Part shown: piece by piece, positions 15,863 through 28,442 of the stretch
Layout of the letters: the number at the start of each line of letters is the position of its first letter
Position numbering within the stretch: the stretch's first letter is position 1
Translations under genes and position numbers: made by a program
DNA from: Escherichia coli
GTDB lineage: Bacteria; Pseudomonadota; Gammaproteobacteria; Enterobacterales; Enterobacteriaceae
DNA: 64,000 bases
Assembly: GCF_046105845.1 (NCBI RefSeq)
Contig: NZ_CP151004.1
Reading direction: 5' to 3' (one strand)
Notes under the pieces: generated by a model
The model's input: only the letters and a program-made list of their open reading frames with translations
Told to the model about the DNA's origin: nothing
Databases searched by the model: none

Positions 15863-17287
15863 TTACTTACGTGTTTCAACTATATTCAGCCCCTTATAAA
15901 GGCTTTGATGGATATATACAGAACCAGTATTTGGCAACATTAAATCAGCATCTTCACATCGGAATCTAGCCGTACCGGAATTGCCCAACCGGACACCAAT
16001 CACAGAAGCATTAAATAGAGTTTTCATCAATTCACGAGAAGTATAGCGCTTACAAAGGTCAGGCGCTTTCTCTTCAATCTTACTGATGAATTCTTCTGTA
16101 GAATTATATCTATGCTGCGTCTGACGTAAAGATTCCAATAGCTCACCAAAATGAGGGTAGAGCCTTTTGTATTCTTGTTTTAAGTCCTCAACTTTCCAAG
16201 CGCTGTACCGTTCTTCAGCTATTCTAATTATATCCTTTTTTATTTCAGAAGCATTAGCATCACAGCGTTTTTGGCATTCTTGCAAAAACTGAATAACTTC
16301 TCTTGGGCGCAAAAATGTGCGCTTCACCAAATAGTTAAACGGTGAAATACTCCCTCTCATTTCACCTTCCTCAAAAATATCATCTATAGTTATATTTTCC
16401 GGCAATCTGGCGTTCACCATATCTTTCAACAACTCTGGTGTCCAGATTATTTCTTCTTCAATTGCTCGGTGTTTATCTTTATCATCAAATTCCAGCCCTT
16501 GATAAATATCAGAGCGTAAAAATGTTACAATATGAATACCTTTGGCTCTAGTATCAGAATAACTATCATTAATATCTTTTGTTGCCTTCAACAAGCCAAT
16601 CAAAAGGCTTTTGGCATCATCCGATCCATCCCAAGAATCATCTAATCGATCAGTGGCAATTAGCACCCCAATATCTGTACAAATTTCTTTAAGCTCGTCA
16701 AGGATGATTTTTATTATTTGAGGTGTCAATGGTGCTTGCGAAGCATCCTTATTAAACCCCACAGCATATCCGAAAGCCTCAAAATTGAATGAACTTAATC
16801 CCGAGAGTAACTTCCTTGCAGTTCCCAAAGTAGTTGGCGATATACCACCATAGTTATCAGAAACAAATTTTTTAATTCTAGCAAGGGCCTCCCGAGGTCT
16901 TTTCTCTGAAAATTGCCTACCTGACCTAATAATTTCTGCCGCAGCCTCAACAGCTATTGCAAATTTCCAAGCATTACAATGTGCCTGTTCGGGTAACAAC
17001 CCTTGCTCTTGATATTGTTTTAATGCTCCCCAAGCATACTGGTCTGGGGTCATGACATTTACGATAACGTCCTGCCCATATTTTGCTCTTACCAACCTTG
17101 GGAGTTGGGTAAAGATGGATGATTTCCCAGCCCCCTTTCTTCCAAGAAAATGGGCACTATAGAAACTCAGAGCTTGCTCAACTTGAGGAGTATTGATGAA
17201 ATAATCAGCCAACCTTCTATCAGCTTCAGCATCGACAGTACCAAAGTTGAGTCCCTTAACTGTAAGGCCTAACGCATCTAACCGCAC
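15863..17287 (-). CDS. P-loop NTPase, divergent KAP-like (candidate anti-phage or accessory gene)
   Basis: 474-aa ORF with GTG start and AAGGA RBS; Walker A FLGRKGAGKSSIF; Walker B-like VLIATDRLDDSW; visibly AT-rich compared with flanking late genes; lies between the cos-like site and Q. Confidence 0.75.
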   Translation of the reverse strand: MRLDALGLTVKGLNFGTVDAEADRRLADYFINTPQVEQALSFYSAHFLGRKGAGKSSIFTQLPRLVRAKYGQDVIVNVMTPDQYAWGALKQYQEQGLLPEQAHCNAWKFAIAVEAAAEIIRSGRQFSEKRPREALARIKKFVSDNYGGISPTTLGTARKLLSGLSSFNFEAFGYAVGFNKDASQAPLTPQIIKIILDELKEICTDIGVLIATDRLDDSWDGSDDAKSLLIGLLKATKDINDSYSDTRAKGIHIVTFLRSDIYQGLEFDDKDKHRAIEEEIIWTPELLKDMVNARLPENITIDDIFEEGEMRGSISPFNYLVKRTFLRPREVIQFLQECQKRCDANASEIKKDIIRIAEERYSAWKVEDLKQEYKRLYPHFGELLESLRQTQHRYNSTEEFISKIEEKAPDLCKRYTSRELMKTLFNASVIGVRLGNSGTARFRCEDADLMLPNTGSVYIHQSLYKGLNIVETRK

Positions 17288-17374
17288 GATAATTCCTTAA
17301 TTGGTAAACTAAATTTGAACTTGATGCCAACAAAGATAATATCAATTTAATTAAAAAGAAAGCTGTTGCGCGCG

Positions 17375-17393
17375 CTCGTATCCCCGCCACGCC
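17375..17393 (-). other. cos-like cohesive-end site (P2/186 type)
   Basis: Minus-strand reading GGCGTGGCGGGGATACGAG; first 13 nt match my recollection of the 186 cos (GGCGTGGCGGGGAAAGCAT); flanked by repeated TTTCATGCA motifs. Confidence 0.5.
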
Positions 17394-17772
17394 TGCCCGC
17401 TTTATGCAGTGGTTTTCATGCACATGCATGACATGAGCAAAAGCCCGCCAGTTCTGGCGGATCTGAGCAAAGACGATCCTCAATCGATCATGCGATTTCA
17501 TGCAGCATAGTCATGCACTGTCAAAGAAGTAAAAATCCGTATCTGAATGGCCACTTGAAAAACGGATCATACGGGTTTACAAAGATGAATGTTCGCTGTG
17601 AACGGGAAGCGGAAGTTAACTTTCAGATAACATAATCCATATGCACGAGAACCTCTAAAATAGAATGGGACACCTAAGCGGGGTACTTACAACGATTCTT
17701 TCCATATTCACAGTTAACACTCTGTTTGGCGTATTTTTATTCAAATAGCAAACACCAATAAAAGGAGTTTCC

Positions 17773-18108
17773 ATGAACAATATTCCCCCTATACCACAGT
17801 TAGGAATTTATGTCTCAAAAATCGATCCCACCCTACGTATCACTGTAACCGATGTTGATATTGTTGATGGTGAGGATGATTCTCCTGATGATGAATTGTT
17901 TTATTTAGTCCACTGGATCGAGGGGGAAGATGAAAGTGATATGACAGCAATGGGATTTGAGCTAGACCCAGTAGAGTGGCAGGCTTTCGTTGAATCTGAG
18001 CAATTAGTGTTTGAGCGTGATCCGTACATGGATTCAATCCCCGAAAATTCAAACTTGGCAAAGATTCGGGATTTTCTCATGAAGACTAAACAGAATGATC
18101 ATTCGTAA
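17773..18108 (+). CDS. Small highly acidic hypothetical protein
   Basis: 111-aa ORF with strong AAGGAG RBS; Asp/Glu-rich (VDIVDGEDDSPDDELF, IEGEDESDM). Confidence 0.6.
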   Translation: MNNIPPIPQLGIYVSKIDPTLRITVTDVDIVDGEDDSPDDELFYLVHWIEGEDESDMTAMGFELDPVEWQAFVESEQLVFERDPYMDSIPENSNLAKIRDFLMKTKQNDHS

Positions 18109-18300
18109 GTGTAAGCATCCATCAGGAAAATGGTTTTGTAAGTGAATCATCAACTTTTAGAGAGTCTCAGACACTCCCACTTCTGCTTCTGACACAAAGC
18201 GGACGATCACTTATCAAAATAACCGCCCACCTTACGCCTTATTTCACTCATTGCCCAAACTAGCCCCCATCAGAATGAATCCTCCTGGGGGCAACATTTC

Positions 18301-18534
18301 TTAATGCAGCCAGCTGTCGTCCTCCCACACCTTCTGCATAATTTTCATCACTTGTTTTCTTTCTTCATCCAGTTGCAGTCCGGTTAGTTCCACACCGTTA
18401 GAGCTACCTTTGCGAATGCGAATTACCGTTTTGGGATACAGGGGGCGCAGATTGCGGTAAAGCTCGGATTCAAGGGCGTCCAGGGTAGACTGGCTAATCT
18501 TCTGCTCTTTATCGATCATTATTTCAATGCGCAT
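18301..18534 (-). CDS. DinI-family protein (186 Tum-like SOS antirepressor, C-terminal module)
   Basis: MRIEIMIDKEQKISQSTLDALESELYRNLRPLYP...KIMQKVWEDDSWLH aligns with the DinI fold; ORF track extends it to 18606 in the same frame. Confidence 0.7.
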   Translation of the reverse strand: MRIEIMIDKEQKISQSTLDALESELYRNLRPLYPKTVIRIRKGSSNGVELTGLQLDEERKQVMKIMQKVWEDDSWLH

Positions 18535-18544
18535 AAAAGTCACC

Positions 18545-18733
18545 TCAGCTGATGACATCCATTGAGCGGTTGTATTCGTGGCTTCTGATTTTTGCCATGA
18601 GTTCATCAGTCAATTCAGAAACCCACTGCAGAGCCAGCCCCTTCTCTTCATCACTACACTCACTAGCCGCTACAAGCTTAAGAAAAAAATCAATGCGCTG
18701 GAGCTTCAAAGACTCCAAAAAATAGTCCTGCAT
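18545..18733 (-). CDS. Small hypothetical protein, first gene of the LexA-boxed operon
   Basis: 62-aa ORF directly downstream of the LexA box, upstream of the DinI-like ORF, in a different frame. Confidence 0.5.
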   Translation of the reverse strand: MQDYFLESLKLQRIDFFLKLVAASECSDEEKGLALQWVSELTDELMAKIRSHEYNRSMDVIS

Positions 18734-22678: not shown

Positions 22679-23020
22679 TTAATTCGGCATGGTTAGCCGT
22701 CTGGGAAATAAGCTCACCACTGCACGAAAATGATTCATTGCTTTAATCAGCTCCCGCTTTTCGTCAGTGGTCAGCTCATTAATGCTGATGCTATGACGTT
22801 CAGCTGGAATTTTTGCCATAAAGAATATGGCAGCCAGTGCCCGTTTATTTTGTTCATTATTGATATCCCGTGGATCACGCATATCTTTAATAAACCGCTC
22901 AAGCTCTGACTCAATATTCAGGCCAAAAACTTTCGCTCTTAATTCCGCAATATGATTAAGTCCATTCAGGCGTTCACCGGGGCTTAATGGAACAGTCGCC
23001 GCAGCGCCTTCAATAGCCAT
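22679..23020 (-). CDS. Hypothetical phage protein
   Basis: 113-aa ORF in the early operon. Confidence 0.5.
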   Translation of the reverse strand: MAIEGAAATVPLSPGERLNGLNHIAELRAKVFGLNIESELERFIKDMRDPRDINNEQNKRALAAIFFMAKIPAERHSISINELTTDEKRELIKAMNHFRAVVSLFPRRLTMPN

Positions 23021-23214
23021 TGGTTCCCCCGTTTTTTCGTTGATAGTTCTGCCAGCAATTCATCTTGTGAACGGCACGGATGCCAGCGTTTACCATCCTC
23101 ACCCATGATCCAGCCGTGACCGTAGTGCATTGCCGGACTTTGTTTTACCAGCAGCGATGCAAATGATGGTTCTTTCGTCAGCATAAGCACCTCACAGCAA
23201 ACCGAATGAAGCAC
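22984..23214 (-). CDS. Hypothetical phage protein
   Basis: 76-aa ORF overlapping neighbours by a few codons; start uncertain. Confidence 0.4.
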   Translation of the reverse strand: MLHSVCCEVLMLTKEPSFASLLVKQSPAMHYGHGWIMGEDGKRWHPCRSQDELLAELSTKKRGNQWLLKALRRLFH

Positions 23215-23701
23215 CGAGGCCAGTCACGGTATCAACTGCACTCGCCATCGCAGGATTAGCCTGTAAACGGGCCTGCAATGAAACAGCAGCCAGCGCCATC
23301 AGTCGTGTAACAGAGTTAATGCTGCTGATCGCATCACGACGGCCTGCACTGGTTTTTACATCGCCAGAAACCGCACCTGCCGCGACACGCCCTATCTCTG
23401 CAGTTGCACTCATGACGTAATGCGGCAGTTTCTCTTTTGCCACCTCATTAATCGGTACACATGGCAGGCAGTGAATCTGTGCCAGAAAGCCATCTACCAG
23501 CGTTGAATCTTCAGTCAGATCGGTAAGCAGCCAGATTTCTGGCGCATTGAGCTGATGCGGTTGATCTGGGTTGAGTTTGTTTCGCAGAGTCTGGACATTC
23601 ATTCCTGCACGTTCTGCCAGCTTCGCCATATTGTGACGAAGTGCAAAAGCTCTACAGGCTTCATCAAAATGCGGGTGTTTGGAAACTTGGTAATCAAACA
23701 T
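23192..23701 (-). CDS. cII: Lysogeny establishment regulator CII (186 type)
   Basis: [50 protein letters not shown]... resembles 186 CII. Confidence 0.85.
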
Positions 23702-23733
23702 GGTCAATGCCTCTGATGTATTTCAGAATCGAA

Positions 23734-23955
23734 CTAATTAAGGTTTAGATTGCATTCTGAAAGCGCATCAACGGTCATGGCTGCTATGTTGATCATCACT
23801 TTTTCGCGTTTTTTATCTTTCCGCAGACGGTGACGGATAAGACGTCCATCAGCCAACATGTCATTGATAGTATCGATGGATAGCCCTGTCAGCTCGCTAT
23901 AACGTTCAATAGTCACATGAGGCGTGGTAAGAGTGATTGAAATGTTAGGTTTCAT
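23734..23955 (-). CDS. apl: Apl/Cox-like excisionase-repressor
   Basis: 73-aa HTH protein, first gene of the lytic operon, divergent from cI. Confidence 0.65.
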
Positions 23956-24080
23956 GATGCAACATTCCTCGTTTAATGTTGATTAATCAGGACGAATACG
24001 GATCGTTTGTATTTTGTGAACATCATAAACATACGATCGCATAATGAAATCGTCAAGACAAAAGTTCACTTGGAGTGACC
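23956..24080. promoter_or_regulatory. Lysis-lysogeny switch region (face-to-face pR/pL type, inferred)
   Basis: ~120-bp AT-rich interval between divergent apl and cI with short repeats (ATACGGATCG / ATACGATCGC). Confidence 0.45.
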
Positions 24081-24650
24081 ATGAATTTGGAGAAAGGCGG
24101 ACGAGGCGCTATAGAGCGCATGGTAGAAGCATATGGCTTCAAGACTCGACAGGCGTTGTGCGATCACTTAGGAATCTCTAAAAGTACTCTCGCCACACGC
24201 TATATGCGTGACTCATTCCCTGCTGAATGGGTAATCCAGTGCGCACTTGAAACGGGCGCCTCGCTTAACTGGCTCACGACCGGACATGGTTCAAAGCAAA
24301 CTTCAGGTAATACAAATACTATGGAAGTCGTTAAATATGTATTATCTGATGGAACCTTGCAGGAAGATGGTTTTTATATTTTCGATAAAGAATTTCTACC
24401 ATCTACGCTCAAAAATCCGTTTGTAATCACCGATAACAATTCCGTTTTTATTTGCGATAAAGAGTTTAACGATATTCGTGACGGCAAATGGGTAATAAGT
24501 ATTGATGCCGAAGTAACAATCCGCGATATCACTCGTTTACCTGGTGGAAGAATCTTAGTTGAAGGTGGAAATAGGGCTTTCGAATGTAAAAAAGAAGAAA
24601 TCGAAATTATTGGAAAAATTATAAGCATAACAGTTAAGTACTTTGAGTAA
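24081..24650 (+). CDS. cI: Immunity repressor CI (186 type)
   Basis: ATG at 24081 after a GGAG RBS; ...IERMVEAYGFKTRQALCDHLGISKSTLATRYMRD..CALETGASLNWLTTG...ITRLPGG...FECK... Confidence 0.85.
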   Translation: MNLEKGGRGAIERMVEAYGFKTRQALCDHLGISKSTLATRYMRDSFPAEWVIQCALETGASLNWLTTGHGSKQTSGNTNTMEVVKYVLSDGTLQEDGFYIFDKEFLPSTLKNPFVITDNNSVFICDKEFNDIRDGKWVISIDAEVTIRDITRLPGGRILVEGGNRAFECKKEEIEIIGKIISITVKYFE

Positions 24651-24700
24651 TATAGGAATGTTTTTATGCTTGGTAAAGCATTTGTTGTGGTGTAAAAAAT

Positions 24701-25624
24701 ATGTCAACTCAAAAATTAAAATTTAGCCATATCAAAAACGATCTGAAAGCAATAGTTATGCAGAATCGTGGAGGGCAAAAAGTTATTGAGCGTATACTCC
24801 TAGCCTATGGCTTCAAGTCACGACAGGCATTATGTAATCATCTAGGTATTTCCCAAAGTACTATGGCCAACAGATATGCACGTAATACCTTTCCTGCAGA
24901 TTGGGTTGTTATATGTTCCATAGAAACAGGAGCATCAATTGAATGGTTAGTTCTTGGTTCAGATACTGCTCCTTCATCAGAGCAATATTCTGAAAAACAT
25001 GCCGTTAATGGCCTTTGCAATGAAGTATACATTCCCACTATAAAGTTCGATAATGAAAAACTCATGAATTTTAACCGAGGGGGTAAGGCAACAATAGAAC
25101 GAATTGTCGAGGCTTACGGTTACAAAACGCGCCAAGCATTAGCTGATCACCTAGGTATTTCAAAAAGCACATTAGCCACACGATACATGCGTGACATTTT
25201 TCCTGCAGACTGGGTTTTGCAGTGTGCAATAGAAACGGGCCATTCTATTGAATGGATTTCATTTGGTACAGGAGAAATGAAAAACACAAAAAATAAAGAT
25301 ACTTTAACATTAGTGAAAAAAGTATTAATCAATGGCAAGTTAATAAATGATGGCTCATATTTATTTGACCCATGCTTTCTACCTTCCAATTTAAAAAATG
25401 CATTCGTAGTATCTACCGAAGACTCTGAATTAATATGTGAAATGGGTTTTAAAGATGTACATGATGGTAAGTGGCTAGTAAATATTGATGGAGAGAATTC
25501 ATTTAGAATGATAACTCGACTACCTAAAGGACGAGTTTATATTTCATCCCAAAATCACTCTTTTGAATGTTCGCTTACAGACATTGAGTTTATTGCAAAA
25601 GTTATTATAAGTTGTTTACATTAA
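24701..25624 (+). CDS. CI paralogue with tandem duplicated N-terminal HTH domains plus a CI-like C-terminal domain
   Basis: 307 aa; residues ~22-90 and ~125-190 each resemble the CI N-domain (the second carries ISKSTLATRYMRD, identical to CI); C-terminal FECSLTDIEF region parallels the CI C-domain. Confidence 0.8.
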   Translation: MSTQKLKFSHIKNDLKAIVMQNRGGQKVIERILLAYGFKSRQALCNHLGISQSTMANRYARNTFPADWVVICSIETGASIEWLVLGSDTAPSSEQYSEKHAVNGLCNEVYIPTIKFDNEKLMNFNRGGKATIERIVEAYGYKTRQALADHLGISKSTLATRYMRDIFPADWVLQCAIETGHSIEWISFGTGEMKNTKNKDTLTLVKKVLINGKLINDGSYLFDPCFLPSNLKNAFVVSTEDSELICEMGFKDVHDGKWLVNIDGENSFRMITRLPKGRVYISSQNHSFECSLTDIEFIAKVIISCLH

Positions 25625-25649
25625 GTAAATTTTTCATGGAGACTTCATA

Positions 25650-27167
25650 GTGAAATGTGGTGATTGTAATTGGAACTGGGATGAAGAAACTACCTTTATA
25701 TTAGACGACGAAGAGGAAATTCTTTCCAAAGACAAACTTAATCGGAGACACTATGCAGAATATCTATATTTTTATCTTAAGGAAAAGGGGCAAAAGAACA
25801 ACACGGTAATCAACCTTAATGCAGAATGGGGAGCTGGTAAAAGTTTTTTCATAAAGAGATTTTATAACTCAATAAAAGATGCACACCCATGCGTTTACAT
25901 TGATGCCTGGAAGCAAGACTTTTCTGATGATGCATTTTTAACCCTTTTTTCTTCTTTGTCACAACAATTGCAAACATATGCAGGAAAACTTGATGCTCGA
26001 TTGATACAAAGCGGCCATGCTATCGGACGCTTTACAAAAGGTGTTCTACCTGAAATCATATCTGGCCTAATCAAGACTTATGCAGGAGTAGATAACGTAG
26101 GTGATATAGCCAAAGAAGCCTCATTAATAATGCTGAAGGAACACCAGGAAAAACTGAAGAGCATTAAGGTATTAAAAAAAGAACTAACGTTATGGTCTAG
26201 GTTGGCATATGAAAATAGTTTTTCATGTCCTATATTTATCTTTATAGATGAATTAGACAGATGCAGGCCAGATTATGCAATTTCTCTTTTAGAGATTGTT
26301 AAACATATATTCGATATTAAAAATTTTGTCTTTATTATTGCTACTGACACAGATCAATTACAACATTCAATCAAGAATGTTTACGGTAATGATTTTTCCG
26401 CAAATGACTATTTAGGCCGTTTTTTTCATAGAAGATTTACTTTAAAACAACCTGAACTTAAAGATTTAATTAATGGTGTTATTGGTGATTATATTGGTAC
26501 CGATTTTGAAAATATCACATCAAAAACATACCCACTAACAGCAACATTAGAAGACTTTTCAATAAATATTTCCAACGTATTTGAAGCATTTGGGTTAAAT
26601 CTAAGAGACTCAATCCGAAATACTGAAAGGTTAATAGACATTCTTAAATCTGATTTAGTCAAAAAGAAAGTAGATTATATTTTTATAATTTCGCTAATGA
26701 TTATATATGATAAGGATCGTCAAATTATAGATGGACTAATTGGTCGAAGAAATGCAGCACAACGTTTCACTGATTCGATAAAGCAAAGCTCCAATTTAAA
26801 AGGTGTTTCTCAAGCCATCCTTGAATTAAATCTTGATACAAATCAGCAAAGAATAGGTGTCAATTATATCTATAGAACGGCGAGCAGTAGATTATTCATC
26901 TCACAGATCGAGCCCAAAATAAATTTAACATTAATAAATTACTTAGATGTTGCATTGTATTTTATTAATAATATAAACATGCTTAAATCAAGTATAAAAA
27001 ACAATGGGCAAAATTCACTAATGATTATATCTCAACAAGGCCCTATTGATGGTGATACAGCTATAAAGTATTTGCAAGGAGCCCTTATAGAGAATGGTCT
27101 GAATACATCTTTTTATGCCTTACATAATTACATTGAATTAATTGAACTGGCCACATCATTTGATTAA
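25650..27167 (+). CDS. KAP-family P-loop NTPase
   Basis: 505 aa, GTG start with GGAGA RBS; NLNAEWGAGKSFF (Walker A), IDAWKQDFSDDAFLTLF, IFIFIDELDRCRPDYAISLLEIVKHIF (Walker B), all hallmark KAP motifs; AT-rich. Confidence 0.85.
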   Translation: MKCGDCNWNWDEETTFILDDEEEILSKDKLNRRHYAEYLYFYLKEKGQKNNTVINLNAEWGAGKSFFIKRFYNSIKDAHPCVYIDAWKQDFSDDAFLTLFSSLSQQLQTYAGKLDARLIQSGHAIGRFTKGVLPEIISGLIKTYAGVDNVGDIAKEASLIMLKEHQEKLKSIKVLKKELTLWSRLAYENSFSCPIFIFIDELDRCRPDYAISLLEIVKHIFDIKNFVFIIATDTDQLQHSIKNVYGNDFSANDYLGRFFHRRFTLKQPELKDLINGVIGDYIGTDFENITSKTYPLTATLEDFSINISNVFEAFGLNLRDSIRNTERLIDILKSDLVKKKVDYIFIISLMIIYDKDRQIIDGLIGRRNAAQRFTDSIKQSSNLKGVSQAILELNLDTNQQRIGVNYIYRTASSRLFISQIEPKINLTLINYLDVALYFINNINMLKSSIKNNGQNSLMIISQQGPIDGDTAIKYLQGALIENGLNTSFYALHNYIELIELATSFD

Positions 27168-27229
27168 AAGCATTGTTTGAATAAACTAAACCATACATTG
27201 ACCACTGGTCAAACATACAGTTAAATTTA

Positions 27230-27253
27230 GCCCTCTGATATGAGGGCTTTATT
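27230..27253 (+). terminator. Weak hairpin upstream of int
   Basis: GCCCTC-tgatat-GAGGGC followed by TTTATT. Confidence 0.35.
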
Positions 27254-28306
27254 ATGGCAGTACGAAAACTCACCACAGGAAAATGGCTTTGCGAATGTTA
27301 CCCCGCCGGACGTAGTGGGCGTCGTGTGCGTAAACAATTCGCCACCAAAGGCGAAGCACTGGCTTTTGAGCGTCACACGATGGAAGAAACCGAAGCAAAG
27401 CCCTGGCTGGGTGAATCAGTGGATCGTCGAACACTGAAAGACGTGGTTGAGCTATGGTTCAAACTACATGGTAAATCTCTGACTGCTGGGCAGCATGTCT
27501 ATGACAAATTGCTGCTGATGGTTGACGCTCTGGGCAATCCCCTTGCAACTGATCTAACCTCTAAAATGTTTGCCCACTATCGAGATAAACGCCTGACAGG
27601 TGAGATCTACTTCAGTGAGAAATGGAAGAAAGGAGCAAGCCCGGTCACCATTAACCTGGAGCAAAGCTATCTAAGTAGTGTTTTTAGCGAACTATCCCGC
27701 CTGGGCGAATGGTCGTATCCGAACCCACTGGAGAACATGCGAAAATTCACCATCGCAGAAAAAGAGATGGCATGGCTTACCCATGAGCAGATTGTTGAAT
27801 TACTAGCTGATTGCAAACGTCAGGACCCAATTCTGGCACTGGTAGTTAAGATATGCTTAAGCACAGGCGCACGCTGGCGAGAAGCCGTAAATCTTACCCG
27901 CTCACAGGTGACCAAATACCGAATTACCTTTGTAAGAACGAAGGGGAAGAAAAACAGAAGCATCCCTATCAGTAAAGAGCTTTACGAAGAGATCATGGCG
28001 CTTGATGGGTTCAATTTCTTCACAGACTGCTATTTTCAATTTTTATCCGTGATGGAAAAAACGTCTATCGTGCTCCCTCGCGGTCAACTCACACACGTTC
28101 TGCGCCATACGTTTGCGGCGCACTTCATGATGTCGGGTGGAAACATTCTGGCTTTACAAAAAATTCTCGGACACCACGATATAAAAATGACTATGCGTTA
28201 CGCACATCTGGCACCGGATCATCTGGAAACGGCGCTCCGTTTCAATCCTCTGGCAACGCTGCCAAGTGGCGACAAAGTGGCGGCAGCGGTTGGCATTACC
28301 CCGTAA
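27254..28306 (+). CDS. int: Tyrosine integrase (P2/186 Int family)
   Basis: 350 aa; C-terminal catalytic region ...HVLRHTFAAHFMMSGGNILALQKILGHHDIKMTMRYAHL. Confidence 0.9.
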   Translation: MAVRKLTTGKWLCECYPAGRSGRRVRKQFATKGEALAFERHTMEETEAKPWLGESVDRRTLKDVVELWFKLHGKSLTAGQHVYDKLLLMVDALGNPLATDLTSKMFAHYRDKRLTGEIYFSEKWKKGASPVTINLEQSYLSSVFSELSRLGEWSYPNPLENMRKFTIAEKEMAWLTHEQIVELLADCKRQDPILALVVKICLSTGARWREAVNLTRSQVTKYRITFVRTKGKKNRSIPISKELYEEIMALDGFNFFTDCYFQFLSVMEKTSIVLPRGQLTHVLRHTFAAHFMMSGGNILALQKILGHHDIKMTMRYAHLAPDHLETALRFNPLATLPSGDKVAAAVGITP

Positions 28307-28442
28307 TAACCACCACTGACCACCAACCCAACTTATTGTTTTTACTCTAAGTTATTGTTTTCATTAACCCGTTTACATAAATGGGTAATTTGTATTGTTG
28401 AATAGCATCTGATGAGAAATTGATGCTAATATTATAAACATA
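28307..28442. other. Junction between the P2/186-like prophage (int side) and the lambdoid element; expected position of the P2-type att core
   Basis: AT-rich 136-bp interval between the int stop and the first lambdoid gene. Confidence 0.4.

What the first reader, a model, noticed from the sequence alone, without database searches (positions are those of the whole stretch)
24701..27167. Lysogeny-operon insertion: tandem-HTH CI paralogue plus KAP-family NTPase between cI and int
Between the 186-type repressor gene cI (24081-24650) and int (27254-28306), on the same strand with gaps of 51, 26 and 87 bp, sit two AT-rich genes that a minimal P2/186 immunity region does not need. One is a 307-aa CI paralogue with two copies of the CI DNA-binding domain. 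The other is a 505-aa protein with hallmark KAP P-loop NTPase motifs (NAEWGAGKSFF, IDAWKQDFSDDAFLTLF, IFIFIDELDRCRPDYAISLL). Their position mirrors lambda rexAB, a defence expressed from the repressor transcript in lysogens. I know of no named defence system that pairs a repressor-like DNA-binding protein with a KAP NTPase, so this is my best candidate for an undescribed superinfection-exclusion or abortive-infection module.
Basis: partly seen in the sequence, partly recalled or inferred. Interest (0 to 1): 0.85.

Follow-up and report, generated by a model that had tools for sequence, protein, structure and literature searches.

The report
Spare repressor plus KAP defence cargo
A P2/186-like prophage of E. 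coli carries, between its repressor and integrase genes, a 2.5-kb block borrowed from a related phage. The block holds that phage's own two-headed repressor and a stand-alone KAP ATPase from an already catalogued family of candidate anti-phage genes, so it is two modules joined by recombination rather than a new two-gene defence system.

Summary
Both ORFs, their domains (two CI HTH domains plus a CI C-domain; a KAP P-loop NTPase) and the low GC content are at the stated coordinates.

- **The KAP gene stands alone.** It matches PADLOC candidate family PDC-S20 (E 9e-78). Homologues at 34-80% identity sit in the same cI-int slot of 186-like prophages of Klebsiella, Enterobacter, Yersinia and E. 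coli. Each follows one ordinary single-HTH CI, never a tandem one.
- **Tandem-HTH CIs are not KAP partners.** They are a widespread class and serve as the only immunity repressor of other prophages and of Klebsiella phage 4LV2017, with different cargo downstream.
- **The window's tandem CI is a chimera.** Its HTH1 is 87-89% identical to those primary tandem repressors. Its C-domain is 59-70% identical to the CIs that precede four close KAP homologues.
- **The block is a recent replacement.** It replaced a 63-aa ORF, leaving a 9-codon stump, and has no promoter or operators of its own. It occurs in 16 of 5,426 complete E. coli genomes and 5 of 74 IMG/VR relatives, nearly identical in all.

Most likely, two "repressor + cargo" modules were stacked. 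KAP is probably an unvalidated single-gene defence expressed with cI. The extra repressor is either a heteroimmunity bonus or a passenger.

The parts
23734..23955 (-). apl-like gene (73 aa), first gene of the lytic operon; part of the resident immunity module
   Evidence: ORF. Same position as the gene next to cII in all related loci. 87-93% nt identity to L002/L017.
23956..24080 (.). Resident 125-bp switch region, with face-to-face promoter-like sites (+ 24017-24045; - 24056-24028)
   Evidence: The sequence is collinear with the L002-type switch and unrelated to the tandem-CI (L017) or KAP-lineage (L012) switches. The promoter matches are consensus hits only, no more frequent than in shuffles.
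24081..24650 (+). Resident immunity repressor cI (189 aa, single HTH + CI C-domain)
   Evidence: PHROG phrog_4 transcriptional repressor, E 1.8e-43. 90% aa identity to the cI of L002-type prophages, and contiguous with their switch DNA at 92.8%.
24666..24695 (+). 9-codon stump (MLGKAFVVV*) of the 63-aa phrog_6000 ORF that normally fills the cI-int slot; the left recombination junction lies at about 24690-24693
   Evidence: Alignment of the window with L002 and L017. blastn homology to L002 ends at 24691 and homology to tandem-CI phages starts at 24693. phrog_6000 assignment.
24701..25624 (+). Second, promoterless repressor gene (307 aa): HTH1 (nt 24782-24967), HTH2 (nt 25088-25282) and CI C-domain (nt 25319-25606). 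It is a chimera of a tandem-type N-terminus and a KAP-lineage C-domain
   Evidence: Pfam; PDB 2FJR match. Domain identities: HTH1 87-89% to the primary tandem CIs of L017/L018/L001; C-domain 59-70% to the L012/L004/L007/L009 CIs versus 33-36% to the tandem CIs.
25650..27167 (+). KAP-family P-loop NTPase (505 aa): NTPase domain residues 32-293 (nt 25743-26528) and a C-terminal alpha/beta domain of unknown fold, residues about 283-505 (nt 26496-27164)
27229..27248 (+). GC-rich hairpin plus T-run directly before the int start codon; part of the spacer that came in with the KAP block
   Evidence: Terminator-like hit. The spacer resembles L012/L004 more than L002, and the stem is kept in all four loci with sequence changes.
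27254..28306 (+). Tyrosine integrase of the resident (L002-type) phage; the right crossover lies at or just before its start
   Evidence: phrog_1 integrase E 6.3e-75. 97.7% nt identity to L002 from 27192 onward, versus about 75-79% to KAP-lineage phages.

Best explanation
The interval 24692-27250 is a recombinational replacement in the cI-int cargo slot of a 186-like prophage. It stacks a second 'immunity repressor + cargo' module behind the resident cI.

Shown:
- The donor module is the repressor-KAP unit of a separate 186-like lineage, in which CI and KAP are always adjacent and have diverged roughly together.
- In the window's copy the repressor carries an extra N-terminal HTH of the kind found in tandem-HTH primary repressors.
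- The block arrived without its own switch DNA.

Inferred:
- Both genes are transcribed by read-through from the resident pL/cI transcript in lysogens.
- The KAP NTPase acts alone. It is a soluble, ATP-driven, probably ring-forming sensor/effector of the PADLOC PDC-S20 candidate family. It is made constitutively in the lysogen and interferes with superinfecting phages, as PifA and other single-gene KAP defences do. Its 220-residue C-terminal domain probably supplies target recognition or the effector activity.
- The tandem CI is not needed for KAP. I put about 0.4 on it still being an active repressor that adds immunity against phages with 4LV2017/L017-type operators, because its two recognition helices are identical or nearly identical to theirs. 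I put about 0.4 on it being a young, still-intact passenger.
For: Mosaic structure:
- Window 23001-24691 matches L002-type prophages at 92.8%.
- Window 24693-25268 is about 79% identical to tandem-CI phages, starting 8 bp before their ATG.
- Window 25065-28393 is about 75% collinear with L012 (single cI-KAP-int), starting at the L012 cI start codon, which corresponds to internal Met123 of the tandem CI.

KAP stands alone:
- P0002 (80%), P0003 (73%), P0005 (71%), P0020 (63%), P0029 (51%) and P0088 (34%) all lie between one 186-189-aa CI and int.
- A Pseudoalteromonas relative has no phage context at all.

Tandem CI stands alone:
- It is the sole repressor next to apl in L017, L018 and phage 4LV2017, followed by DUF4747 or phrog_2628 cargo.
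- Dozens of 90% clusters of 290-330-aa tandem CIs exist.

Linkage by descent:
- The upstream CI is 69/68/67/62/49/45% identical to tandem-CI residues 123-307 where KAP identity is 80/73/71/63/34/51%.

Recent single origin:
- All carriers are 97-100% identical over the block, and their cI is 99-100% identical, versus 90-93% in non-carriers.

Stacking precedent:
- L007 has a 50-aa CI C-domain relic after KAP, followed by PDC-M11A/B.

Defence assignment:
- PDC-S20 E 9.3e-78, PifA 1.1e-16, QatA 6.8e-14.
- RdrA is the best fold match.
- Single-gene KAP defences have been validated elsewhere (PMC12632615; 10.64898/2026.02.27.708500).

Co-transcription:
- Spacers are short, and the only terminator-like hit on the + strand between the pL-like promoter site and 27229 is a weak one at 25240-25255 inside the tandem CI gene.
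Against: - No member of PDC-S20 has, to my knowledge, been tested. No paper in the searched library names it.
- The KAP protein has no recognisable effector domain, so the mechanism is inference.
- Expression from pL is inferred from gene order only.
- The tight, conserved CI-KAP adjacency and co-divergence would also be expected if KAP needed its cognate repressor.
- The tandem CI shows 3N/0S, 3N/2S and 1N/0S substitutions against three other carriers. That is too few to show either constraint or decay.
- The donor phage, with this exact tandem CI as sole repressor, was not found.
Confidence: 0.7

Rival explanations
1. One reading: the tandem-HTH CI and the KAP NTPase form one two-component superinfection-exclusion or abortive-infection system. 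The repressor-like protein would sense or bind incoming phage DNA, or regulate KAP, and the NTPase would execute.
For: The two genes are adjacent, 25 bp apart, on the same strand, and moved together as one block, including into a phage background with a different int. Across the family a CI gene always precedes KAP in phage contexts, and the two co-diverge.
Against: Six KAP homologues have only the phage's ordinary single-HTH primary repressor upstream, so in those phages no extra DNA-binding partner exists. In Yersinia another gene separates CI and KAP. Pseudoalteromonas homologues have no CI nearby. Tandem CIs pair with unrelated cargo. PADLOC models the family as a single-gene candidate. 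Co-divergence is what linkage alone predicts.
Confidence: 0.08
2. The tandem CI is the functional point of the block. It would be an extra immunity repressor, expressed from the resident lysogenic transcript, that extends superinfection immunity to heteroimmune 186-like phages using tandem-CI operators, with KAP as independent cargo.
For: HTH1 is 87-89% and HTH2 70-78% identical to the primary tandem CIs of L017/L018/4LV2017. The HTH2 recognition helix (SKSTLATRYMRD) is identical and the HTH1 helix (SQSTMANRYARN versus ...RD) differs at one residue. The ORF is intact in all carriers. Its C-domain belongs to a clade that works as a primary repressor. Relatives of the L017-type tandem-CI gene and switch give megablast matches in 377 of 5,426 E. 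coli genomes, although only 11 hold most of the query and many matches cover only short stretches of it.
Against: There is no evidence of purifying selection, since substitutions are mostly non-synonymous, though very few. The arrangement has a single recent origin and is rare. The only other extra CI found in this slot (L007) has decayed to a 50-aa relic. I could not define operators for tandem CIs, so the predicted target match is untested.
Confidence: 0.4
3. The tandem CI is a neutral passenger. It was dragged in because the crossover fell just upstream of the donor's repressor gene, and it is intact only because the event is recent.
For: The left junction is an abrupt, non-homologous join 8 bp before the ATG, inside a truncated resident ORF. 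The block is nearly identical in all carriers. Substitutions are compatible with neutrality. The CI relic in L007 shows the expected fate.
Against: The full 924-bp ORF, with all three domains, is kept across carriers that have since exchanged int alleles. Making a second oligomerising CI-family protein alongside the resident repressor is unlikely to be entirely without effect.
Confidence: 0.4
4. The KAP NTPase is not an anti-phage gene. It would serve the prophage's own biology, such as lysogeny maintenance, induction control or host manipulation.
For: It is always placed in the lysogenic operon immediately after cI. It has no recognisable toxic effector domain. The family has no experimental defence data.
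Against: It is absent from most phages of the same type (69 of 74), so it is not a core regulatory function. Low GC and patchy distribution fit accessory cargo. It matches defence-candidate and defence ATPase profiles and folds. The same slot holds other defence candidates (PDC-M11). The repressor-integrase interval is a reported defence hotspot in P2-related phages (PMC9122126).
Confidence: 0.15

Closest known systems
PADLOC PDC-S20 (single-gene 'phage defence candidate' family of KAP NTPases)
   Same: Strong full-domain profile match (E 9.3e-78, residues 20-389 on profile positions 11-382 of 464; three further PDC-S20 profiles also hit) and a single-gene architecture.
   Different: PDC-S20 is a computational candidate. 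I found no publication naming or testing it. The C-terminal ~115 residues lie outside the profile match.
PifA of the F plasmid (KAP NTPase that excludes T7)
   Same: KAP P-loop domain (PADLOC PifA profile E 1.1e-16 over residues 26-273). Constitutively expressed from a mobile element. No separate effector gene.
   Different: Similarity is limited to the NTPase domain (profile positions 15-261 of 720). The protein is about 200 residues shorter and its C-terminal part does not match. It is not an orthologue.
Experimentally validated single-gene KAP defences: EF_KAP of Enterococcus (PMC12632615) and 'Reve' from P4-like satellites (10.64898/2026.02.27.708500)
   Same: One gene with a KAP NTPase plus an uncharacterised C-terminal region, carried on a mobile element. 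EF_KAP needs its Walker B motif.
   Different: EF_KAP has two N-terminal transmembrane helices; this protein has none. No sequences were available, so homology beyond the domain could not be tested.
RADAR RdrA and Qat QatA (defence ATPases)
   Same: RdrA is the best solved-structure match (Foldseek E 5e-6). The QatA profile hits around Walker B.
   Different: TM-scores are low (0.31-0.34). The partners that define those systems (RdrB deaminase; QatB/C/D) are absent from the locus. The NCBIfam QatA score of 43 is far below the cutoff of 600.
Lambda rexAB and Vibrio phage K139 glo: cargo between or behind the repressor and integrase genes; cI-int hotspot of K139-like phages (PMC9122126); integrase-primase hotspot of P2-like phages (10.64898/2026.02.27.708500)
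   Same: Accessory gene placed in the repressor operon so that it is made in lysogens. The slot shows different cargo in different relatives.
   Different: No sequence relationship. Here the cargo varies together with the repressor type rather than independently of it.
186 CI (PDB 2FJR) and the tandem-HTH CI repressors of 186-like prophages, e.g. Klebsiella phage 4LV2017 ARB15674.1
   Same: Same domains. Residues 131-302 align over the whole 186 CI. The two-HTH architecture is 62% identical overall to the 4LV2017 repressor.
   Different: In those phages the protein is the only repressor and sits next to its own switch. Here it lies downstream of another cI, lacks operators and a promoter, and has a C-domain of a different clade.

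Membership tests
KAP family P-loop NTPase (Pfam PF07693) | Profile match over the NTPase domain with intact Walker A (GxGK[ST]) and Walker B (hhhhDE) motifs | tested here: met
   PF07693 E 7.5e-46, residues 32-293. GAGKS at 61-65 and IFIFIDELD at 195-203, invariant in 39 homologues.
KAP family P-loop NTPase (Pfam PF07693) | Transmembrane helices inserted in or flanking the NTPase domain (common in the family, not universal) | tested here: not met
   The maximum 19-residue Kyte-Doolittle mean is 1.43, so no transmembrane segment is predicted. This places it among the soluble KAP proteins and does not exclude membership.
PADLOC PDC-S20 candidate defence | Match to the PDC-S20 profile HMMs | tested here: met
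   PDLC04959 E 9.3e-78, and three more PDC-S20 profiles from E 2e-46 to 7e-26.
PADLOC PDC-S20 candidate defence | Demonstrated anti-phage activity | not testable with these tools
   No paper in the searched library mentions PDC-S20. A phage challenge experiment is needed.
PifA (F-plasmid T7 exclusion) | Full-length similarity to PifA, including the region beyond the NTPase domain | tested here: not met
   Only profile positions 15-261 of 720 are matched.
Qat system | QatA at equivalog score, plus neighbouring QatB, QatC (QueC-like) and QatD (TatD-like) genes | tested here: not met
   The NCBIfam QatA score is 43.3 against a cutoff of 600. The neighbours are a CI repressor and an integrase.
RADAR | RdrA ATPase with an adjacent RdrB adenosine deaminase | tested here: not met
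   Only a distant fold resemblance to RdrA (TM 0.31-0.34). There is no RdrB-like gene in the locus.
186-type CI immunity repressor (Phage_CI_repr + Phage_CI_C) | N-terminal CI HTH domain and C-terminal CI oligomerisation domain | tested here: met
   Two PF07022 domains and one PF16452 domain. Alignment to 2FJR.
186-type CI immunity repressor (Phage_CI_repr + Phage_CI_C) | Located at a divergent apl/cI switch carrying its own operators and promoters, i.e. acting as the phage's primary repressor | tested here: not met
   The gene starts 50 bp after the resident cI. Donor-type DNA begins only 8 bp before its ATG. The one switch in the window is collinear with the resident cI type.
   0 of 6 independent KAP contexts have a tandem CI. 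3 of 3 examined primary tandem-CI loci lack KAP. The pair occurs only in one near-clonal block.

The most novel reading that the evidence does not exclude
KAP may work only together with its cognate CI-family repressor, for example as a 'guard' that monitors the repressor or the DNA it binds and fires when a superinfecting phage or satellite inactivates or titrates it. That would explain why CI and KAP are always adjacent and co-diverge, and why the donor repressor was kept intact when the module was placed behind a second cI. It would be a defence whose sensor is the prophage's own immunity repressor.
Probability: 0.07. Interest if true: 0.8.

Novelty: new member of a known kind. Interest (0 to 1): 0.35.

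Why it matters
If the KAP gene protects lysogens, it would give the first phenotype to a catalogued but untested candidate family (PDC-S20). It would also add the cI-int slot of E. coli/Klebsiella 186-like prophages to the working list of defence hotspots. In this slot the cargo travels linked to the immunity repressor rather than as a free cassette. The double-repressor arrangement is a natural test of whether a prophage can widen its immunity range by stacking a second, promoterless repressor. It also offers a clean system (EPEC E2348/69 carries it) for asking how two 186-type CI oligomers coexist in one cell. None of this changes current concepts, so the value is incremental.

Tried and rejected
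1. **Operators for the tandem CI.** I compared ten switch regions and ran repeat searches. No shared, convincing operator motif emerged, so the heteroimmunity prediction could not be tested by looking for target sites.
2. **Selection test.** I compared the window with three other carriers. There are only 1-5 differences in the tandem CI, which is uninformative.
3. **Apparent single-HTH donor.** A 186-aa protein (P0252) in the tandem-CI cluster looked like a donor, but all four instances start within 60 bp of a contig end. They are truncated gene calls, not a distinct gene.
4. **'Two places per record' for the tandem CI in Klebsiella phages.** Local tblastn shows these are only the two HTH repeats aligning out of register. 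There is no second CI gene.
6. **Named defence systems.** PADLOC gave no hit for either CI or for int. KAP is not a member of PifA, QatA or RdrA (see membership tests).
7. **Literature.** I found no paper on PDC-S20 and none describing tandem-HTH 186-type repressors or double-repressor P2-like prophages.
8. **Internal promoter-like site at 25026-25054 before Met123.** Dismissed, because such matches are as frequent in shuffled sequence.
Full report
**1. What is there**

The window around the finding is the early/immunity end of a P2/186-like prophage integrated next to rcdA/ybjJ. It is 99.7-99.9% identical over 4.7 kb to prophages in 13 complete E. coli genomes, including EPEC E2348/69; three further carriers are 97.4-99.0% identical.

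On the + strand lie:
- cI (24081-24650);
- a 307-aa ORF (24701-25624);
- a 505-aa ORF (25650-27167);
- int (27254-28306).

On the other strand, apl (23734-23955), cII, fil and the replication genes run leftward. GC content falls to 0.28-0.36 over the two middle genes, against 0.42-0.54 on both sides.

Pfam confirms two Phage_CI_repr HTH domains and one Phage_CI_C domain in the 307-aa protein. Its residues 131-302 align with the solved 186 CI structure 2FJR. Pfam also confirms a KAP_NTPase domain in the 505-aa protein (E 7.5e-46). The Walker A and B residues are invariant among 39 homologues.

**2. The KAP gene is independent cargo**

PADLOC places the protein in PDC-S20, a single-gene "phage defence candidate" family (E 9.3e-78). 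It also gives weaker domain-level hits to PifA and QatA. NCBIfam's QatA model scores far below its cutoff.

A search of 5.8 billion proteins found a well-populated enterobacterial family. I looked up the genomic context of seven members:
- The homologues at 80, 73, 71, 63, 51 and 34% identity come from Klebsiella-, Enterobacter-, Yersinia- and E. coli-type contigs. Each lies in exactly the same place: after the repressor gene and before int of a 186-like prophage.
- In each case the upstream repressor is one ordinary 186-189-aa single-HTH CI sitting at the apl/cI switch. None has a tandem-HTH CI.
- In Yersinia a 327-aa phrog_2628 protein is inserted between cI and KAP.
- A Pseudoalteromonas relative is a lone chromosomal gene with no phage context.

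**3. The tandem-HTH CI is a standard primary repressor elsewhere**

Proteins of 290-330 aa with the same architecture form dozens of 90% clusters in Enterobacteriaceae. In E. coli prophages at the same att site (L017, L018) and in Klebsiella phage 4LV2017 (L001), such a protein is the only CI. It lies directly next to apl and is followed by unrelated cargo: a DUF4747 protein plus a hypothetical, or a phrog_2628 protein. The tandem CI is therefore not a KAP partner either.

**4. How the window's arrangement arose**

Pairwise blastn shows a clean mosaic:
- 23001-24691 follows the common L002-type prophage at 92.8%. That stretch covers the switch, cI and the first bases of a 63-aa phrog_6000 ORF.
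- At 24690-24693 the sequence switches abruptly, inside what is now a 9-codon stump (24666-24695), to DNA that begins 8 bp before the start codon of tandem-CI genes.
- From 25065, which is the internal Met123 of the tandem CI, the window is collinear with the single cI-KAP-int phages, starting at their cI start codon.
- The KAP-int spacer still resembles those phages, whereas int itself returns to the L002 type at 97.7%.

At the protein level the tandem CI is chimeric:
- HTH1 is 87-89% identical to the primary tandem repressors.
- HTH2 is about 70-79% identical to the tandem repressors and to the four closest KAP-linked CIs alike.
- The C-domain is 59-70% identical to the CIs that precede the four closest KAP homologues, but only 33-36% identical to the tandem repressors' C-domains.

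Across loci, identity of the upstream CI tracks identity of KAP: 69/68/67/62/49/45% against 80/73/71/63/34/51%. Repressor and KAP have therefore been inherited as neighbours for a long time.

The simplest history is that a "repressor + KAP" immunity-cargo module from another 186-like lineage replaced the small ORF behind the resident cI. Its repressor had acquired a second HTH. The module brought no switch DNA of its own.

**5. How common it is**

- Only 16 of 5,426 complete E. coli genomes have the block, while 1,134 in all match some part of the 4.7-kb query.
- In an IMG/VR sample of 74 prophage contigs with this cI type and a locatable int, 69 have the ~400-bp interval with the small ORF. 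Five have the 2.6-kb block, and those five have cI 99-100% identical to the window, against 90-93% for the rest.
- Every context recovered for the exact tandem-CI protein is the same cI-tandem CI-KAP-int arrangement.
- Apparent 186-aa versions are contig-edge truncations.
- One carrier (L019, a 150-kb plasmid record) has the identical block joined to an int differing at 96 positions, so the block has since moved between integrase backgrounds.

This is one recent event, not a recurrent architecture. One relative (L007) has a 50-aa CI C-domain relic downstream of its KAP, followed by a PADLOC PDC-M11A/B pair. So stacking of "cI + cargo" modules happens, and surplus repressors can decay.

**6. 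Likely function**

*Shown.* The KAP protein is a soluble P-loop NTPase with no transmembrane segment. Its catalytic motifs are intact. The family is under long-term conservation (34-80% identity, full length). It is placed so that it lies in the repressor's operon.

*Inferred.* Co-transcription from the pL-like promoter (24017-24045) is supported by short spacers. The only terminator-like hit on the + strand before the hairpin at 27229-27248 is a weak one (6 pairs, 3 G-C) at 25240-25255 inside the tandem CI gene.

*Structure.* The AF2 model (pLDDT 80) most resembles the ring-forming RADAR ATPase RdrA among solved structures, but distantly. The last 220 residues form a confidently predicted alpha/beta domain (pLDDT 92) with no informative structural neighbour.

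*Literature.* Single-gene KAP NTPases have been shown to block phages, and EF_KAP does so in a Walker-B-dependent way (EF_KAP, PMC12632615; Reve in P4 satellites, 10.64898/2026.02.27.708500). Repressor-integrase or integrase-primase intervals are recognised cargo/defence hotspots in P2-related phages (PMC9122126; 10.64898/2026.02.27.708500).

I therefore favour a stand-alone, constitutively expressed, ATP-dependent sensor/effector that interferes with superinfecting phages. The mechanism beyond "NTPase-dependent" is unknown, and PDC-S20 itself is untested.

For the tandem CI, the DNA-reading heads are nearly those of a common E. coli/Klebsiella immunity type. The HTH2 recognition helix is identical and the HTH1 helix differs at one residue. 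Its oligomerisation domain comes from a working repressor clade. If it is made, it should repress phages of that immunity type. Whether it is maintained for that purpose or is a young passenger cannot be decided. Substitutions among carriers are too few, and I could not define operators.

**7. Comparison with known systems, and verdict**

The KAP gene is a new member of a catalogued candidate family. It is functionally closest to PifA-like and other single-gene KAP defences, and positionally analogous to lambda rexAB or K139 glo. It is not a member of PifA, Qat or RADAR (see membership tests).

The "repressor + KAP pair" fails the key test for a system, which is conserved co-occurrence. What remains moderately interesting is twofold. 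First, cargo in this slot travels linked to the repressor type. Second, this lineage carries two intact CI-family repressors in one lysogenic operon.

A coupled "repressor-guard" model is not excluded. It is made unlikely by the Yersinia and Pseudoalteromonas contexts, and because linkage alone explains the co-divergence. I rate overall interest as modest (0.35).

Noticed in passing
L007:8224-10410 (JGI metagenome contig Ga0058694_1000006): Downstream of a KAP homologue, still before int, lie a 50-aa remnant of a CI C-domain, an 8xMP-domain protein and a PADLOC PDC-M11A/B pair. This is a second cargo module stacked in the same slot, with a decayed repressor between the two.
   Followed up: partly
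L014:3986-4969 (Yersinia enterocolitica) and L018:4466-5440 (E. coli 20KM2222): A ~325-aa protein of phrog_2628 (unknown function; the Yersinia copy looks coiled-coil with hydrophobic C-terminal segments) recurs in the cI-int slot. It appears once alone after a tandem CI and once between a single CI and KAP. It has no PADLOC hit and is another untested candidate cargo gene.
   Followed up: partly
L019 (NZ_JBRERE010000002.1, 149.8-kb record labelled plasmid pE100181_149): The identical cI-tandem CI-KAP block sits next to an integrase differing at 96 of 1,053 nt, and is flanked by a serine acetyltransferase gene instead of rcdA. The prophage or block is therefore in a different replicon or att context.
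   Followed up: no
window 27229-27248: A GC-rich hairpin followed by a T-run ends 5 nt before the int start codon. The stem is preserved, with sequence changes, in L012, L004 and L002. It may attenuate read-through from the lysogenic operon into int or occlude the int ribosome-binding site.
   Followed up: partly
window 15863-18606: The classical P2 hotspot between the replication gene and the portal gene holds a 474-aa ORF (phrog_13260, unknown), a 111-aa ORF (phrog_17127, unknown) and a DinI-like gene. None hits PADLOC. E2348/69 annotates a DprA-like protein here.
   Followed up: partly
L017:4453-6109 and L001:3953-5002: Prophages and Klebsiella phage 4LV2017 that use the tandem CI as primary repressor carry a 349-aa DUF4747 protein in the cI-int slot (plus a 201-aa protein in E. 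coli). There is no PADLOC hit. This is further repressor-linked cargo of unknown function.
   Followed up: no
L030:21070-26838 (E2348/69 copy of the prophage): In the E2348/69 annotation the tail/baseplate region is rearranged. A virion morphogenesis gene is truncated, the neighbouring tail genes are inverted, and a 'recombinase family protein' lies nearby. This copy of the prophage may therefore be defective or carry an invertible segment.
   Followed up: no
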